A stretch of 64,000 nt of DNA from an uncultured Clostridia bacterium (GTDB taxonomy: Bacteria > Bacillota > Clostridia > TANB77 > CAG-508): the NCBI GenBank assembly GCA_934121905.1, contig CAKOVI010000009.1, forward strand, positions 3,986 to 67,985, written 5' to 3'. The position numbers and the translations under genes were made by a program. A model generated the notes under the pieces. It ran no database searches. It was not told the origin of the DNA and saw only the letters and a program-made list of their open reading frames with translations. This document shows, in pieces, positions 1,217-62,414 of the stretch. Within the stretch, counting starts at the first letter, position 1. Each line of letters begins with the position of its first letter.

Positions 1217-1314
1217 TTGGACAAATAGGACCGGGTCTTTTTTGTCCCGTTTACTCATTTAGGACCGGGTCCTTTTTGGGTTGGGACAAAAAAGACCCGG
1301 TCCCATTTGTCCCA
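1217..1314. repeat. Palindromic MITE-like intergenic repeat, copy 1 (GGACCGGGTCTTTTTTGTCCC ... GGGACAAAAAAGACCCGGTCCC)
   Basis: Inverted-repeat arms read directly in the sequence. It sits between atpA and atpB. It belongs to a family with about 17 copies in the window. Confidence 0.85.
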
Positions 1315-1325
1315 TCTCGCCAGAA

Positions 1326-3104
1326 TTAAATATGTTCCTTATATTCATCTTCCAACTTTTTCAATCTATTTTTAATTCTAACATTAAACTCATCAATTTT
1401 TCCAATTTCATCATTTTTGACATTATACTTAAGTTCCTTATACTCGTCTAAAATGCCTGTCTTTTTAATTTCAGAAATAGGAATTCCTTTATTAATAAGC
1501 TTAAGTGCTCTTTCATAGAACAAAATAATAGTTTCCATCATTTTAAACTGTTTCTCAATAGGAACAGAAGTATCAATATCATTAAAGGAATTTTGTTGTA
1601 AGAAACCTATCCTTATGCTACTTGCAACTTCCAATAGAAGTTTTTTATCATCAGATAAAACATCTTGTCCAACAACTCTAGCAATTTCAAGAAGTTCATT
1701 TTCTTTTTCTAATATCTTAACTATTTTTGTTCTAAATTCCAAAAATTCGCTGTCAACATTATCATCATACCAATCTGATAAATTATCTACATACTCACTA
1801 TAACTTATATTCCAATCTATTGCAGGGTAATGTCTTGAATATGCCAAAGTCCTATTTAATCCCCAAAATACATGGACAAACCTTTTGGTATTTTGTGTAA
1901 CAGGCTCTGAAAAGTCTGAACCTTGCGGAGATACTGCACCTATAATTGTTACAGAACCTGTATTTCCATTTAAAGTTTCAACTTGACCTGCCCTTCCATA
2001 AAATTCTGATAATCTTGATGGTAAGTATGATGGAAATCCTTCTTCTGCTGGCATTTCTTCTAGTCTTCCTGATATTTCACGAAGTGCTTCTGCCCATCTT
2101 GATGTTGAATCTGCCATTATTGCTACATCATAGCCCATATCTCTATAGTATTCTGCAATTGTTATTCCTGTATAAATTGATGTTTCTCTTGCTGCAACTG
2201 GCATATTTGATGTATTTGCAATTAATACCGTTCTATCCATTAAAGGTCTTCCAGATTTTGGGTCTATTAACTTTGGAAAATCTTCCAAGACCTCTGTCAT
2301 TTCATTTCCACGCTCTCCACATCCTATATATACAATTATATCAGCATTTGACCATTTAGCTAATTGATGTTGTGTTACTGTCTTTCCTGTTCCAAAACCT
2401 CCAGGTATCATTGCAGTTCCACCCTTTGCAATTGGAAACAATGTGTCTATAACTCTCTGTCCTGTAATTAACGGAGTAGATATTGCGAGCCTATTTTTAT
2501 ATGGTCTTGGTTTTCTAACAGGCCATTTTTGAACCATATTTAGTTCTAAAACTTGACTATCTTCTCCTTCGGTTTCTATTTTAGCAATAGTATCAAGTAC
2601 TGTATAATCCCCTTCTGGAGCTATCTCAATAACCTTTGCTTTGCAATCAAATTTATTCATTATTTTGTTTGTAATAAGTTCTGTTTCCTTTACTTCTCCT
2701 ATTATAGAATTAAAGGTTACAACATTTCCTAATTGAACTTTTGGTACAAAATGCCACTTTTTTTCTGTATCAACTCCAATGTTTGATGCGCCTCTTTTTA
2801 TGAAATCTCCATATTCATCTTTTAAGGATTTAAGTGGTCTTTCTATTCCATCAAATATATTACTTATTATTCCAGGTCCCAAAACTAAAGTTAATGGTTC
2901 TTCTGCTCCAATTACCTCTTGTCCAATTTTTAATCCTGTTGTTCCTTCATAAACTTGAATTGTAGCAATATTTTCTGTTAACTTAATTACCTCACCCAAA
3001 ATTTTCTCTTTTGAAATATAGACAATATCGTGCATAGCAAAATCGCCTTCACCCTTAGCCTGTATAACTGGTCCATTAATAGAAATTATATACTTTTTTT
3101 GCAT
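1326..3104 (-). CDS. atpA: V-type ATP synthase catalytic subunit A
   Basis: 592 aa. P-loop GGFGTGKTV is present, and the ...[17 protein letters not shown] region is V-type A subunit specific. Confidence 0.95.
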
Positions 3105-3108
3105 TTTT

Positions 3109-3676
3109 TTATCCTTTCAATCTCTCATCTATCATATTCAACAATGTATTATCAATAATAATTCCTTGATTTTTATTTTCTAAAATACATCCACCTATAT
3201 ATTTTGAATTTATCTCTCTTATACTTATATTACTGTATTTTTGAGAAATAATATATTGATATTTTTGGGTATCTTCCTTTGTTATCCCAATACATGTTGC
3301 CTGAGAAGTTTCTATTTTTGCAATTCCGTTCTTCAATTGAATTTATTAAAAAATCTTTATATTCTTCTTTTTCAGTAAATTCTTTTAATCTATTTATAGC
3401 TTCCAACTTCAAACTTTCTTTTATTCTTTTTCCTTCATCAATTATTTCTTTTTTACAATTAATTTCATAATTAAAAACTTTTTTGTTAAAATCTTTTTCT
3501 ATTCTTTGAACTGTTTTTTCATAATTGATTCTTTTCTTTTCTTCATATTCTTGTACTTCTTCTTCAATTCCTGCTTTTATTTCATCATCCACTTCTTTTT
3601 CAATTTGCTTATATTCCTTATTTGATGTATCTTGCAAACTCTGACTAAATTGCTGTAATTTTTCATTTATATCCAT
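3109..3676 (-). CDS. atpE: V-type ATP synthase subunit E, interrupted by an apparent single-base frameshift near 3336-3353
   Basis: ORF 3676..3230 is the N-terminal part (KE-rich coiled coil). ORF 3336..3109 is the C-terminal part (LKNGIAKIETSQ...IIIDNTLLNMIDERL). Together they are about 200 aa, the normal E subunit length. The overlap contains an A6/T3 run. Confidence 0.7.
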
Positions 3677-3693
3677 AATGATTCCTCCAATTG

Positions 3694-61900: not shown

Positions 61901-62091
61901 ACTCTTGTTTCTATATGTCCTACGTGTGGCATTCCATTTGCTGTTGGAGGTCCATCATAAAACATAAAATATCTTTTTCCCTCATTTTTGTTAAAATTCT
62001 TTTTTACTATGTCTTTTTCTTTCCATAGCTCAGCTACTTCTTTTTCCATACCTACATAGCCTTCTTTTGGTAATTCTACTTTTTTGTACAT
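58948..62091 (-). CDS. ileS: Isoleucine--tRNA ligase, type 2 (eukaryote-like length, 1047 aa)
   Basis: [15 protein letters not shown] and KMSKS motifs. The CP1 editing domain is present. The length is 1047 aa, with a non-zinc-finger C-terminus typical of type 2 IleRS. Confidence 0.92.
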
Positions 62092-62108
62092 ATCCTTTCA
62101 CTCCTTTT

Positions 62109-62366
62109 TTATTTTTTAAAATTTTTTGCTACACTTTCTATGTTTTGTAATTCAAATCTGTATTTTTGCTTAACATTTGGATATTTCTCGTGGTCTACTT
62201 CTGATAAAAACATTTCTTTTGGTCTTACCCATAAACCACCATCTTCATATAGTTTTCTGTATAGTACCATTTCTTCTTTTGTTTCAGAATATTTTGCTAT
62301 TCCTTCTACTAAGTAGTAGTCGCCTTTGAAGTGTTTGTAAATTCTGTTAATTTTTAGTTCATTCAT
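62109..62366 (-). CDS. DUF1653-family small protein (start MNELKINRIYKHFKGDYY at 62366)
   Basis: About 85 aa with the conserved YKHFKG motif. AGGAGGAAG SD. The longer ORF call is repeat-encoded. Confidence 0.7.
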   Translation of the reverse strand: MNELKINRIYKHFKGDYYLVEGIAKYSETKEEMVLYRKLYEDGGLWVRPKEMFLSEVDHEKYPNVKQKYRFELQNIESVAKNFKK

Positions 62367-62386
62367 ATTACTTCCTCCTACTTGTT

Positions 62387-62414
62387 CGTTTGGGACCGGT
62401 TCTTTTGTGAACAT
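62387..62414. repeat. Half-copy of the MITE-like repeat, copy 17 (CGTTTGGGACCGGTTCTTTTGTGAACAT)
   Basis: Single arm identical to the left arm of copy 15. It sits between the T-box terminator and the DUF1653 SD. Confidence 0.7.

What the first reader, a model, noticed from the sequence alone, without database searches (positions are those of the whole stretch)
1217..62414. Very dense family of palindromic MITE/REP-like intergenic repeats (about 17 copies in 64 kb)
Short palindromic elements of 30-135 bp recur at about one per 3.8 kb.
- Core is GGGACCGG(G)TCTTTTTG ... CAAAAAGACCCGGTCCC.
- Flanking arms look like TTTCGTATTGGGGAC or (C)CCATTTGGG.
- There are subtypes: CCGGGTC, ACCGGTTC, GGGGACGGTTC, ACCGTTTC. 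The central loops vary. Some copies are composites or half-elements (copies 3, 10, 17).
- Positions: 1217, 3944, 4588, 12442, 15296, 20584, 21481, 23786, 24288, 26845, 27758, 34451, 35016, 43309, 44703, 53711, 62387.
- Nearly all are intergenic and abut stop codons or SD sequences.

This density and architecture resemble REP/BOX/Correia/RPE-type elements, but I do not recognise the consensus as a named family. If it holds genome-wide, that implies several hundred copies and a major role in mRNA 3'-end structure, processing or stability.
Basis: seen in the sequence. Interest (0 to 1): 0.8.

Follow-up and report, generated by a model that had tools for sequence, protein, structure and literature searches.

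The report
Clostridial REP-like repeats with cognate transposase
The dense short palindromes are real. They belong to the known REP/REPIN kind of miniature mobile DNA, because in closely related gut Clostridia the same units bracket a single-copy IS200-like tyrosine transposase gene, so this is a new member of a known class rather than a new kind of element.

Summary
**Observation: confirmed.**
- The core GGACCGGKTCTTTTT occurs 25 times in 64 kb, against 0.04 expected.
- 16 of the 17 listed loci match a family profile. The locus at 26845 is only a decayed half-hairpin.
- The elements cover 1,295 bp, 2% of the window.
- They lie between stop codons and ribosome-binding sites of housekeeping operons: V-ATPase, acc/fab, tRNA synthetases and pgk.

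**Anatomy.** A unit of about 35 nt has a conserved centre, ATTGGGACCGGKTCTTTT. Variable arms of 6-8 nt flank it and covary. Units occur singly, as inverted doublets that form 25-40-bp hairpins, or nested.

**Identity.**
- In related MAGs a 255-aa Y1 HUH transposase is always flanked by 2-4 forward and 2-4 reverse units. It matches Pfam Y1_Tnp, and its best fold match is E. coli TnpA_REP (4ER8).
- It sits at one conserved locus, next to glmS, in three protein clusters that are 75-95% identical.
- It is of the TIRYT / Group-1 RAYT type.

**Mobility.** Strains of one species (96.7-97.7% nt identity) show four clean presence/absence sites without target-site duplication.

**Verdict.** This is a REP/REPIN-like family with a cognate tyrosine transposase and a new member of a known kind. 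Effects on mRNA are untested, and the transposase was not shown in the window's own genome.

The parts
1217..1325 (.). E1: three units (an outer doublet with a third unit in its loop) between the V-ATPase A and B subunit genes. The whole 109 nt is absent in strain L215.
   Evidence: I8, I22; site 4; dG -63.5 kcal/mol
3944..4081 (.). E2: a doublet (arms 3944-3977 and 4015-4048) plus a degenerate third unit (4048-4078), between ntpK (ATP-synt_C) and ntpF. The 88-nt core of the doublet is absent in strain L217, and the degenerate unit is absent in L211 and L215.
   Evidence: I4; site 2
4585..4623 (-). E3: a single 39-nt unit of the GGGGTCGGTTC subtype between V_ATPase_I and ntpK. It is absent in strain L217, where the site reads TTTTTT-C-AAAAAAA.
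   Evidence: (site 3)
12442..12532 (.). E4: a doublet with 33-nt arms and a 25-nt loop, between the arginyl-tRNA synthetase gene and ldh.
   Evidence: I5; dG -61.6
15296..15368 (.). E5: a doublet between the cysteinyl-tRNA synthetase gene and a class-Ib tRNA synthetase gene. Strain L002 has a 22-nt slippage deletion in its centre.
   Evidence: (I7)
20584..20678 (.). E6: a GGGGACGGTTC-type hairpin with a GGGACCGGTTC unit nested in its loop. Its 5' arm encodes the last 8 codons and the stop of accA.
   Evidence: (I12)
21481..21577 (.). E7: a doublet with 42-nt arms that are 98% complementary, between accD and accA.
   Evidence: I1; dG -68.1
23788..23838 (.). E8: a simple GGGGACGGTT-type hairpin between fabZ and the biotin carboxylase gene.
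   Evidence: (I20)
24275..24372 (.). E9: a composite of GGGACCGTTTC-type units between the BCCP gene and fabZ.
   Evidence: (I3, I14)
26845..26878 (.). E10: a decayed half-hairpin (AAAAAAAGGACGGCACC) between fabD and fabG. It is not detected by the family profile. It is related to the GGTGCCGTCC hairpin found in the site-1 insert of other strains.
   Evidence: site 1 insert; no hit
27755..27830 (.). E11: a perfect 76-nt palindrome (38-nt arms, 100% complementary) at the 3' end of the birA-like ORF, upstream of fabD. Its arms are 1 mismatch from the units that flank the transposase gene in L098.
   Evidence: I2; dG -65.2
34449..34503 (.). E12: a simple GGGGACGGTTC-type hairpin, downstream of an 89-aa ORF and upstream of a promoter-like TTGACT-17-TATACT.
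   Evidence: (I10)
35016..35110 (.). E13: a GGGGACGGTTC-type hairpin with a perfect single unit (AAAATGTTCCATTGGAACCGGGTCTTTTTGGAACATTTT) nested in its loop, immediately after the stop of gene 35111..36520.
   Evidence: (I6)
43311..43403 (.). E14: three GGACCGGTTC-type units (a doublet plus one), immediately downstream of pgk.
   Evidence: (I13, I25)
44702..44762 (.). E15: a doublet of GGGACCGGTTCTTTT-GTGAACA-type units upstream of pgk. One arm is 2 mismatches from the units that flank the transposase gene in L219 and L228.
   Evidence: (I11)
53709..53767 (.). E16: two degenerate units forming a hairpin, in the 64-nt spacer between convergent genes.
62383..62413 (+). E17: a single unit between a T-box-like leader and the ribosome-binding site of the downstream gene. 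It matches the unit that flanks the transposase gene in L219 and L228 at 30 of 31 positions.

Best explanation
**What it is.** The repeats are a lineage-specific family of REP-like units, which often form REPIN/BIME-like inverted doublets, in an uncultured low-GC species of human-gut Clostridia.

**Unit anatomy.** A unit is about 35 nt. Its centre is conserved (ATT-GGGACCGGKTC-TTTT, with GGGGACGGTTC, GGGGTCGGTTC and GGGACCGTTTC variants). Two variable 6-8-nt arms flank the centre and pair with each other. Two units in inverted orientation give a 25-40-bp hairpin.

**How it most likely spreads (inferred).** A single-copy, chromosomally fixed Y1 HUH tyrosine transposase of the RAYT/TIRYT type disseminates, excises and replaces the units. 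Its gene is itself bracketed by forward and reverse units, as in a REPtron or TIRtron. By analogy with E. coli TnpA_REP and IS200/IS605 TnpA, the enzyme would bind the folded unit on single-stranded DNA, cut and rejoin one strand, and leave no target-site duplication.

**Where copies survive.** Copies persist only where they are harmless. That means the short spacers between stop codons and ribosome-binding sites, 3' ends of transcription units, and occasionally in frame at the 3' end of an ORF.

**Shown and inferred.**
- Shown: the family, its anatomy, its extragenic placement, its restriction to one clade, within-species presence/absence without duplication, and the transposase-repeat association in five related lineages.
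- Inferred: that this enzyme moves the units, and that the window's own genome encodes it.
- Untested: the consequence that every operon copy puts a stable stem-loop (-24 to -68 kcal/mol) into a polycistronic mRNA.
For: **The family and its anatomy**
- The core is enriched more than 100-fold over chance.
- A profile built from the units hits only the listed loci.
- Unit arms pair in 73% of cells. This compares with 50 +/- 1.5% when 3' arms are dealt to other units (maximum 54% in 500 shuffles) and with 41-53% in slid registers. Several pair types occur per position.

**Restriction to one clade**
- The exact 16-mer is multi-copy only in MAGs of gut Clostridia with 26-31% GC.
- Sister-species loci have 7.5-8 units per 10 kb.
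- Relatives whose FabF is 77% identical or less have none in the same operon.

**Mobility**
- Strains 96.7-97.7% identical to the window in nucleotide sequence show four clean filled/empty sites. The segments are 39-109 nt and there is no target-site duplication.
- A different unit occupies the E11 site in strain L198.
- Sister species carry different subtypes at the same intergenic sites.

**The enzyme**
- The ORF L098 3031-3798 matches Pfam Y1_Tnp (E 6e-13, 49 bits, cutoff 23).
- It scores 63 bits against the NCBIfam REP-associated tyrosine transposase model and 20 bits against the IS200 model.
- The HUH motif (H60-V-H62) and the Y119-x-H-x-N-P motif are invariant in 24 homologues.
- An AlphaFold model has pLDDT 82.9. 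Its best PDB match is 4ER8, the REP-associated transposase bound to a REP hairpin (E 1.2e-5), followed by the IS608 and ISDra2 TnpA structures.

**Association of enzyme and repeats**
- There are 2 forward units upstream and 2-3 reverse units downstream of the gene in three clusters, with proteins 95%, 78% and 75% identical to the L098 ORF. All sit at the same locus next to glmS.
- Homologues at 62% and 55% identity lie at other loci. They are also flanked by 3-4 plus 3-4 inverted units with a related GGGACC(N)GGT core.
- Window units differ by 1 mismatch from those flanking units.
Against: - The transposase gene is not in the window. I could not show it in the window's own genome. The link rests on congeneric genomes from the same cohorts.
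- No biochemical or population-sequencing evidence shows that this enzyme moves the units.
- Canonical REP features are missing. There is no GT[AG]G or CGTC tag at the hairpin foot, found in only 3 of 141 units. The conserved part is the centre of the unit, not the stem.
- No common target sequence or cleavage dinucleotide is visible at the four polymorphic sites. These sites could be deletions rather than insertions. The L217 allele at site 2 leaves a shorter palindrome and has 2-3 nt of microhomology.
- Unpaired units show no strand bias, 23 against 21. Lagging-strand-specific single-strand transposition might have produced one.
- In one homologue lineage (L238, L239) units occur only next to the gene. 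The enzyme therefore does not always go with a dispersed family.
Confidence: 0.75

Rival explanations
1. The hairpins are host-selected RNA elements. They would act as intercistronic mRNA stabilisers, RNase III processing sites or attenuating terminators, and they would spread by recombination or conversion. On this view the nearby Y1 gene is incidental.
For: - 14 of 17 copies lie inside or at the ends of co-directional housekeeping operons, 0-21 nt after a stop codon and close to the next ribosome-binding site.
- Predicted mRNA folds are very stable, with z-scores of -5 to -19.
- Arms covary.
- In a goat-gut MAG the core is a perfect palindrome, AAAAAGGGACCWGGTCCCTTTTT. It sits after stop codons and ahead of promoters, like a bidirectional terminator.
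- Orthologous sites stay occupied in sister species, although by different subtypes.
Against: - The asymmetric core GGGACCGGGTCTT is kept letter for letter in many copies and in several species. Selection for structure alone does not explain that.
- Unpaired units have no orientation preference relative to transcription, 23 against 21.
- None of the 8 elements in 12-32 kb has a terminator-like T tail on the sense strand.
- Same-species strains do without individual copies, and closely related genera do without all of them in the same operons.
- The association with the Y1 gene recurs at three different chromosomal loci in five lineages.
- Secondary use by the host remains possible and is compatible with the main explanation.
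Confidence: 0.12
2. The repeats are classical MITEs. They would be deletion derivatives of a DDE-type insertion sequence, mobilised in trans through terminal inverted repeats.
For: - Many copies are long inverted repeats of 50-135 bp, a size typical of MITEs.
- Copies are gained and lost between strains.
Against: - No target-site duplication appears at any of the four filled/empty pairs.
- Single 31-39-nt units exist and are themselves polymorphic (E3 and E17).
- Element ends are not conserved. The outermost arm bases are the variable part.
- About 0.8 Mb of low-GC loci were screened. The only transposase-like hits in loci that carry units are the Y1 genes. One locus without units (L118) has an IS200-like fragment. 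The Pfam tables list no DDE transposase.
Confidence: 0.04
3. The conserved core is a recognition sequence for something other than a transposase. Examples are a DNA-uptake signal, which in Neisseria often occurs as inverted pairs in terminators, or a binding site for a nucleoid or regulatory protein.
For: - A conserved core of about 15 nt occurs at high density, often as inverted pairs after genes.
- The centre contains CCNGG and GGWCC motifs. This is seen directly in the sequence.
Against: - Copies are almost absent from coding DNA, unlike uptake signals.
- The flanking genes have no common regulation, and the sites lie after stop codons rather than in promoters.
- The idea explains neither the covarying arms nor the constant bracketing of the Y1 gene.
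- No uptake-signal system is known in Gram-positive bacteria (established knowledge).
Confidence: 0.03

Closest known systems
E. coli REP/BIME elements with TnpA_REP (RAYT; yafM, PDB 4ER8), and Pseudomonas REPINs with Group 2/3 RAYTs
   Same: - Short imperfect palindromes at high copy number in extragenic space.
- Units occur singly, as inverted doublets and in clusters.
- A single-copy Y1 HUH transposase gene is bracketed by the same units, as in a REPtron.
- No target-site duplication.
- Strain-level gain and loss.
- The protein fold is closest to 4ER8.
   Different: - There is no GT[AG]G foot.
- The conserved part is the unit's centre, and the stems vary.
- The protein is only 19.5% identical to E. 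coli RAYT (E 0.013) and carries a helical C-terminal extension of about 125 aa.
- The host is a Gram-positive anaerobe with 29% GC.
- The density of about 1 unit per 2 kb is several-fold higher than in E. coli. The E. coli figure is from my own knowledge.
TIRtrons and TIRYTs (Di Nocera et al. 2013, PMC3733652), equivalent to TnpA_Y1 subclass 2.1 (Quentin et al. 2018, PMC6006769) and to Group 1 RAYTs (Bertels et al. 2017, PMC5581495)
   Same: - The protein is 33-36% identical (E about 1e-28) to the TIRYTs sml 4509, gbm 2474, pca 3049 and pfs 148A.
- It shares AYCLMxNHVH, Y...NP and WSS motifs with them.
- It is a long protein with a C-terminal extension that gives weak helix-turn-helix matches.
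- The gene is flanked by inverted repeats.
- The GGGGACGG and GGGGTCGG variants match 7 of 8 positions of the published GGGGWSAS motif.
- Some TIR families, such as those of S. maltophilia, are also dispersed as dimers and clusters.
   Different: - The published sources describe this class as poorly productive or without dispersed repeats. Flanking 16-mers average about 12 copies. No REP-like sequences were found near subclass 2.1 genes.
- Here the flanking units are a very dense genome-wide family.
- The commonest core here, GGGACCGG, does not fit GGGGWSAS.
- No clostridial example appears in the text of the paper that named TIRYTs.
IS200/IS605 family elements and their hairpin-ended miniature derivatives
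   Same: - The catalytic domain is a Y1 HUH domain.
- Hairpin substrates.
- No duplication of the target.
   Different: - The transposase gene here is fixed at one chromosomal locus and is vertically inherited.
- It is not multi-copy.
- Its flanks are arrays of the dispersed unit, not distinct left and right ends.
- The IS200 model scores only 20 bits.
Rickettsia palindromic elements (RPE) and intragenic REPs
   Same: Two copies extend into ORFs without destroying them. E11 is read through in frame and E6 supplies a C-terminus.
   Different: - Here only the 3' ends of ORFs are affected.
- RPEs have no known cognate transposase (my own knowledge).

Membership tests
REP / REPIN with RAYT (REPtron) | Short imperfect palindromes at high copy number, confined to extragenic space | tested here: met
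   30 units at 16 loci against 0.18 expected. All lie outside curated coding sequence except two overlaps with ORF 3' ends. About 5 units per 10 kb in unselected loci of the clade.
REP / REPIN with RAYT (REPtron) | Units organised as inverted doublets (REPIN/BIME) as well as singles and clusters | tested here: met
   Doublets: E2, E4, E5, E7, E8, E11, E12, E15. Singles: E3, E17. Triplets or nested: E1, E6, E13, E14.
REP / REPIN with RAYT (REPtron) | A cognate single-copy Y1 HUH transposase gene flanked by the same units in inverted orientation | tested here: met
   Met in related genomes: L098, L218, L219, L220-L237, L238 and L241. Not shown for the window's own genome. The gene is absent from the window.
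REP / REPIN with RAYT (REPtron) | Conserved GT[AG]G (or CGTC) tetranucleotide at the foot of the hairpin | tested here: not met
   GT[AG]G lies within 14 nt upstream in 3 of 141 units, and CGTC in 1 of 141.
REP / REPIN with RAYT (REPtron) | Catalytic motifs HUH and Y---NP, and the RAYT fold | tested here: met
   H60-V-H62 and Y119-V-H-R-N-P are invariant. The best fold match is 4ER8. The NCBIfam REP_Tyr_transpos model scores 63 bits, below its equivalog cutoff of 80.
REP / REPIN with RAYT (REPtron) | Gain and loss without target-site duplication | tested here: met
   Four filled/empty sites within one species, none with a duplication. The direction of change, insertion or deletion, is not resolved.
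TIRYT / TnpA_Y1 subclass 2.1 / Group 1 RAYT | Protein closer to TIRYTs than to canonical RAYTs | tested here: met
   BLASTP gives E about 1e-28 against TIRYTs (33-36% identity). It gives E 0.013 against E. coli b0228 and 8e-11 against pfs 3939. The comparison sequences come from Additional file 5 of PMC3733652.
TIRYT / TnpA_Y1 subclass 2.1 / Group 1 RAYT | C-terminal extension with a helix-turn-helix domain (Bac_DnaA_C, HTH_23 or HTH_28-like) | tested here: inconclusive
   An all-helical C-terminal extension of about 125 aa is present in the model. Pfam gives only weak HTH matches: HTH_19 in 4 of 24 members (best E 0.0065) and HTH_28 in 2 of 24 (E 0.14).
TIRYT / TnpA_Y1 subclass 2.1 / Group 1 RAYT | Flanking inverted repeats that carry GGGGWSAS | tested here: inconclusive
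   The GGGGACGG and GGGGTCGG variants match 7 of 8 positions. The commonest core, GGGACCGG, does not match.
MITE (derived from a DDE-type IS) | Target-site duplication, and terminal inverted repeats shared with a parent IS | tested here: not met
   No duplication at four sites. The outer ends of elements are variable. The Pfam gene tables of the loci they cover list no DDE transposase. A tblastn search of about 0.8 Mb of loci with Y1 queries found only Y1-type hits.
Intrinsic (Rho-independent) terminators | GC-rich stem-loop followed directly by a T run on the transcribed strand | tested here: not met
   None of E4-E11 is called on the sense strand. Most copies lie inside operons whose downstream genes must still be expressed, which is an inference. 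E13 does end in a T run.
Any Rfam family | Score at or above the family's gathering threshold | tested here: not met
   Only a tRNA passes. The elements give only sub-threshold matches to plant and animal miRNA hairpin models.

The most novel reading that the evidence does not exclude
This would be the first clear case in Firmicutes/Clostridia of a TIRYT-type (Group 1 / subclass 2.1) tyrosine transposase tied to a very large dispersed repeat population, on the order of several hundred copies. Published surveys found few or no dispersed repeats for that class, which is the largest one. The units also have an unusual architecture, with a conserved centre and covarying variable arms. That architecture would imply a mode of substrate recognition different from the GTAG-foot recognition of E. 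coli TnpA_REP.
Probability: 0.4. Interest if true: 0.6.

Novelty: new member of a known kind. Interest (0 to 1): 0.45.

Why it matters
**For annotation and assembly.** About 2% of this genome region, and roughly a fifth of its non-coding DNA, is one repeat family.
- The repeats can lead gene callers to over-extend start codons or to call spurious ORFs across them, as my simple ORF calls did.
- They may also break metagenome assemblies. Many contigs that carry the transposase gene are only about 1 kb long.
- They change the C-termini of two proteins.

**For the biology of mobile DNA.** The system pairs a TIRYT/Group-1-type tyrosine transposase with an abundant repeat population that is polymorphic between strains of a common human-gut organism.
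- The function of that transposase class is still open.
- The many metagenomes of this species could be mined for excision and insertion events.

**For gene expression.** Nearly every copy places a 25-40-bp stem-loop between cistrons of essential operons. This gives a testable case of possible RNase III processing or mRNA stabilisation in Clostridia.

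Tried and rejected
- **Rfam.** Searches at gathering and at permissive thresholds gave only sub-threshold miRNA-hairpin matches.
- **Literature by core sequence**: nothing relevant.
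- **Literature on RAYTs in Clostridia or Firmicutes**: only the two general surveys.
- **Viral contig scan with the 16-mer**: 9 hits. Only one is a typical doublet, on a low-GC contig (L192). The family is not phage-borne.
- **Transposase candidates inside the window.** The small genes bracketed by elements turned out to be ntpK, fabZ, pgk, fabD and other housekeeping genes.
- **Sequence searches of the PDB.** A single sequence and a profile found nothing. Only the fold search worked.
- **Structure prediction.** It was repeated with P0001 as the first row.
- **Target-site duplications and a common target** at four polymorphic sites: none found.
- **Terminator reading**: rejected for the operon copies.
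- **Orientation bias** of unpaired units in the window's clade: none. One distant lineage (L241) has 7 of 7 dispersed GGGACCGGT-type units in the same orientation. This was not pursued.
- **Split gene upstream of the transposase gene.** I tested whether a repeat insertion causes the split. It does not.
- **Linking a transposase cluster to the window's own species.** I compared sample and contig identifiers. The cohorts are the same, but no shared sample or contig was found, so the link stays unproven.

Full report
**Observation**

The repeat is real and far beyond chance.
- GGACCGGKTCTTTTT with up to 2 mismatches occurs 25 times on both strands of the 64-kb window, against 0.04 expected.
- The 15-mer GGGACCGGGTCTTTT with up to 3 mismatches occurs 30 times, against 0.18 in Markov-1 random sequence.
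- The inverted-repeat scan finds the palindromes at the stated coordinates, with arms of 17-47 nt.
- A profile built from 136 units hits 16 of the 17 listed loci and nothing else in the window.
- The locus at 26845 is only a decayed half-hairpin of a related subtype.
- Together the 17 elements cover 1,295 bp, 2.0% of the window. Most fold into hairpins of -24 to -68 kcal/mol on the transcribed strand.

**Anatomy**

- The basic unit is about 35 nt: arm X (6-8 nt, variable), a 2-3-nt A/T linker, the core GGGACCGGKTC followed by TTTT(T), and arm X'. Core variants are GGGGACGGTTC, GGGGTCGGTTC and GGGACCGTTTC.
- X and X' pair in a fixed register, position -3 with position +1.
- Across 140 distinct units from the window and related loci, 73% of the cells pair. 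When the 3' arms are dealt to other units the figure is 50 +/- 1.5% (maximum 54% in 500 shuffles). In slid registers it is 41-53%. Three to six pair types occur per position.
- The centre is therefore conserved while the stem varies and covaries. This is the reverse of a canonical REP.
- There is no GT[AG]G or CGTC tag.
- Units occur singly (E3, E17), as inverted doublets that form one long hairpin (E2, E4, E5, E7, E8, E11, E12, E15), as triplets (E1, E14), or nested in the loop of another element (E6, E13).

**Context**

- The window has about 29% GC and almost all genes lie on the minus strand.
- The elements lie in the short spacers of housekeeping operons. These are the V-type ATPase operon, the acc/fab fatty-acid operon, tRNA synthetase genes, ldh and pgk.
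- They start 0-21 nt after a stop codon and usually end 9-29 nt before the next start codon, directly upstream of the ribosome-binding site.
- Two copies run into ORF 3' ends. E6 encodes the last eight codons and the stop of accA. The birA-like ORF reads in frame through all of E11.
- None of the eight elements between 12 and 32 kb is terminator-like on the sense strand.

**Distribution**

- The same contig occurs in human-gut metagenomes.
- The exact 16-mer is multi-copy only in uncultured gut Clostridia MAGs with 26-31% GC. Matches elsewhere are single chance hits in high-GC genomes.
- Loci of a sister species (FabF about 90% identical) carry 7.5-8 units per 10 kb.
- Relatives whose FabF is 77% identical or less carry none in the same operon.
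- Loci fetched through proteins rather than through the repeat show about 5 units per 10 kb throughout the clade.
- A related genome that carries the transposase has a 1.68-Mb contig. If this species' genome is of similar size, that density would mean several hundred units per genome. This is an extrapolation.

**Turnover**

Strains 96.7-97.7% identical to the window in nucleotide sequence show four clean filled/empty sites.
- A 104-nt insert between accC and accD is absent from the window.
- An 88-nt doublet core is missing from ntpK|ntpF in L217.
- A 39-nt single unit is missing from ntpI|ntpK in L217. That empty site reads TTTTTT-C-AAAAAAA.
- The whole 109-nt E1 is missing in L215.

No site has a target-site duplication or a shared target sequence.

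Other changes were seen as well.
- Slippage deletions occur inside elements.
- At the E11 site, a same-species strain carries a different unit with the reading frame preserved.
- Sister species hold different subtypes at the same intergenic sites.

Whether each polymorphism is an insertion, an excision or a deletion cannot be decided from these data.

**The enzyme**

It gave a weak hit in L098, MAG UMGS1576.
- The ORF there, L098 3031-3798, encodes 255 aa. Two forward units lie upstream and two reverse units downstream.
- It matches Pfam Y1_Tnp (E 6e-13).
- It scores 63 bits on the NCBIfam REP-associated tyrosine transposase model and 20 bits on the IS200 model.
- The database search returned 1,111 relatives at E <= 1e-5. 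The 120 best listed come mainly from metagenome assemblies (ENA, Logan), and most have no name.
- The HUH and Y-x-H-x-N-P motifs are invariant.
- An AlphaFold model has pLDDT 82.9. Its best PDB match is 4ER8, E. coli TnpA_REP bound to a REP hairpin, followed by the IS608 and ISDra2 transposases.
- Three clusters, with proteins 95%, 78% and 75% identical to the L098 ORF, have the gene at the same place. It lies between a metC-like gene and a convergent glmS, once per contig, and is always bracketed by 2 forward and 2-3 reverse units.
- Homologues at 62% and 55% identity lie at other loci. They are again bracketed by 3-4 plus 3-4 units with a related GGGACC(N)GGT core.
- In one of these two lineages the units are also dispersed. 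In the other they occur only at the gene.
- Window units are 1 mismatch from the flanking units of two clusters.

**Classification**

- BLASTP against the sequences printed in Additional file 5 of Di Nocera et al. 2013 places the protein with the TIRYTs (33-36% identity, E about 1e-28). It does not group with canonical RAYTs (E. coli b0228: 19.5%, E 0.013).
- According to Quentin et al. 2018, TIRYTs correspond to their subclass 2.1 and to Group 1 of Bertels et al. 2017.
- Those surveys report no REP-like sequences near subclass 2.1 genes. They report flanking 16-mers present only about 12 times for Group 1, a group 'also found in the Clostridia'.
- Di Nocera et al. describe moderately abundant TIR families for a few TIRYTs, notably in S. 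maltophilia.
- The kind is therefore known. This family, its host group, its density and its centre-conserved architecture are not described in anything I could search.

**Mechanism and rivals**

- The best-supported reading is a REPtron/TIRtron. A fixed, vertically inherited Y1 transposase acts on folded single-stranded units and spreads, excises or replaces them without duplicating the target. Copies survive only in harmless spacers.
- The family, the polymorphism and the association between gene and units are shown. The catalytic link is inferred from E. coli TnpA_REP and IS200/IS605 biochemistry.
- A purely RNA-functional origin is unlikely, for four reasons. The asymmetric core is kept letter for letter across species. 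Unpaired units have no orientation bias. Strains and neighbouring genera do without copies. The association with the Y1 gene recurs at three loci.
- Secondary effects on mRNA stability or processing are plausible and untested.
- A DDE-type MITE is disfavoured by the missing duplications and the variable element ends.
- An uptake or binding signal explains neither the covarying arms nor the bracketing of the Y1 gene.

**Limits**

- The transposase gene is not in the window.
- Cleavage sites, the target rule and the active strand are unknown.
- Copy number per genome is an extrapolation.

Noticed in passing
window 62435-62587 (-): A T-box leader match below threshold (67.7 bits against a gathering score of 93) lies upstream of the gene that starts near 62375. 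The single REP unit E17 sits between the leader and the ribosome-binding site.
   Followed up: no
window 27733-28359 (-), with E11 at 27755-27830; L198 5918-6508: The birA-like (BPL_LplA_LipB) ORF reads in frame through the whole 76-nt doublet. Its last 30 or so residues are therefore repeat-encoded. A same-species strain has a different 39-nt unit there and a protein 12 residues shorter. Both alleles end at the same TGA, which overlaps the fabD ATG.
   Followed up: partly
window 20652-20678 (-): The last 8 codons and the stop of accA (...EFRIGDGSF*) are supplied by the 5' arm of element E6. The sister species L113 ends ...EYKKF*.
   Followed up: partly
window 34536-34805 (-): An 89-aa ORF of unknown function is bracketed by two hairpins of the same subtype, E13 upstream and E12 downstream.
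   Followed up: no
L113 9496-9986 and 12209-12630: The sister species has two extra segments of about 0.4-0.5 kb inside the fab operon, each with a small reverse-strand ORF. The window has only 2 bp and 65 bp at these places.
   Followed up: no
L108 4150-4185 and 7525-7575; L071 440-490: In a goat-colon MAG the core is a perfect palindrome, AAAAAGGGACCWGGTCCCTTTTT. It sits after stop codons and before promoter-like sequences, like a bidirectional terminator. This may be an ancestral or alternative form of the unit.
   Followed up: no
L241 303-12334: In a lineage whose Y1 protein is 55% identical, 33-nt units (CTGCRCATTTGGGACCGGTTCTGTTTTGCTCAC) are dispersed, some as tandem direct pairs. All 7 GGGACCGGT-type units away from the gene share one orientation, opposite to the mostly plus-strand genes.
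   Followed up: no
L238 and L239, 5830-6935: In a lineage whose Y1 protein is 62% identical, units occur only as 3 + 4 copies around the gene. There are none in the other 11 kb or so, a TIRtron without visible dissemination.
   Followed up: no
L220-L237, upstream of the Y1 gene (e.g. L228 6092-7343): The metC-like (Met_gamma_lyase) gene is called as two pieces, usually 309 + 49-59 aa, in most strains and species examined. No repeat lies in the gap.
   Followed up: partly
window about 19790 and about 10958; L198-L214: Strains 97-98.7% identical to the window in nucleotide sequence have different gene neighbourhoods. The differences begin immediately after the adh_short gene of the fab operon and upstream of ychF. 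There are at least two chromosomal arrangements within the species.
   Followed up: no
window 9077-9142, 37520-37563, 63624-63670: Other palindromes that do not belong to this family. Two are A/T-rich and one has perfect 21-nt arms in a 40-nt spacer (63625-63664) between a plus-strand and a minus-strand gene.
   Followed up: no
window 10841-10913 (-): A tRNA gene, the only Rfam match above its gathering score.
   Followed up: no
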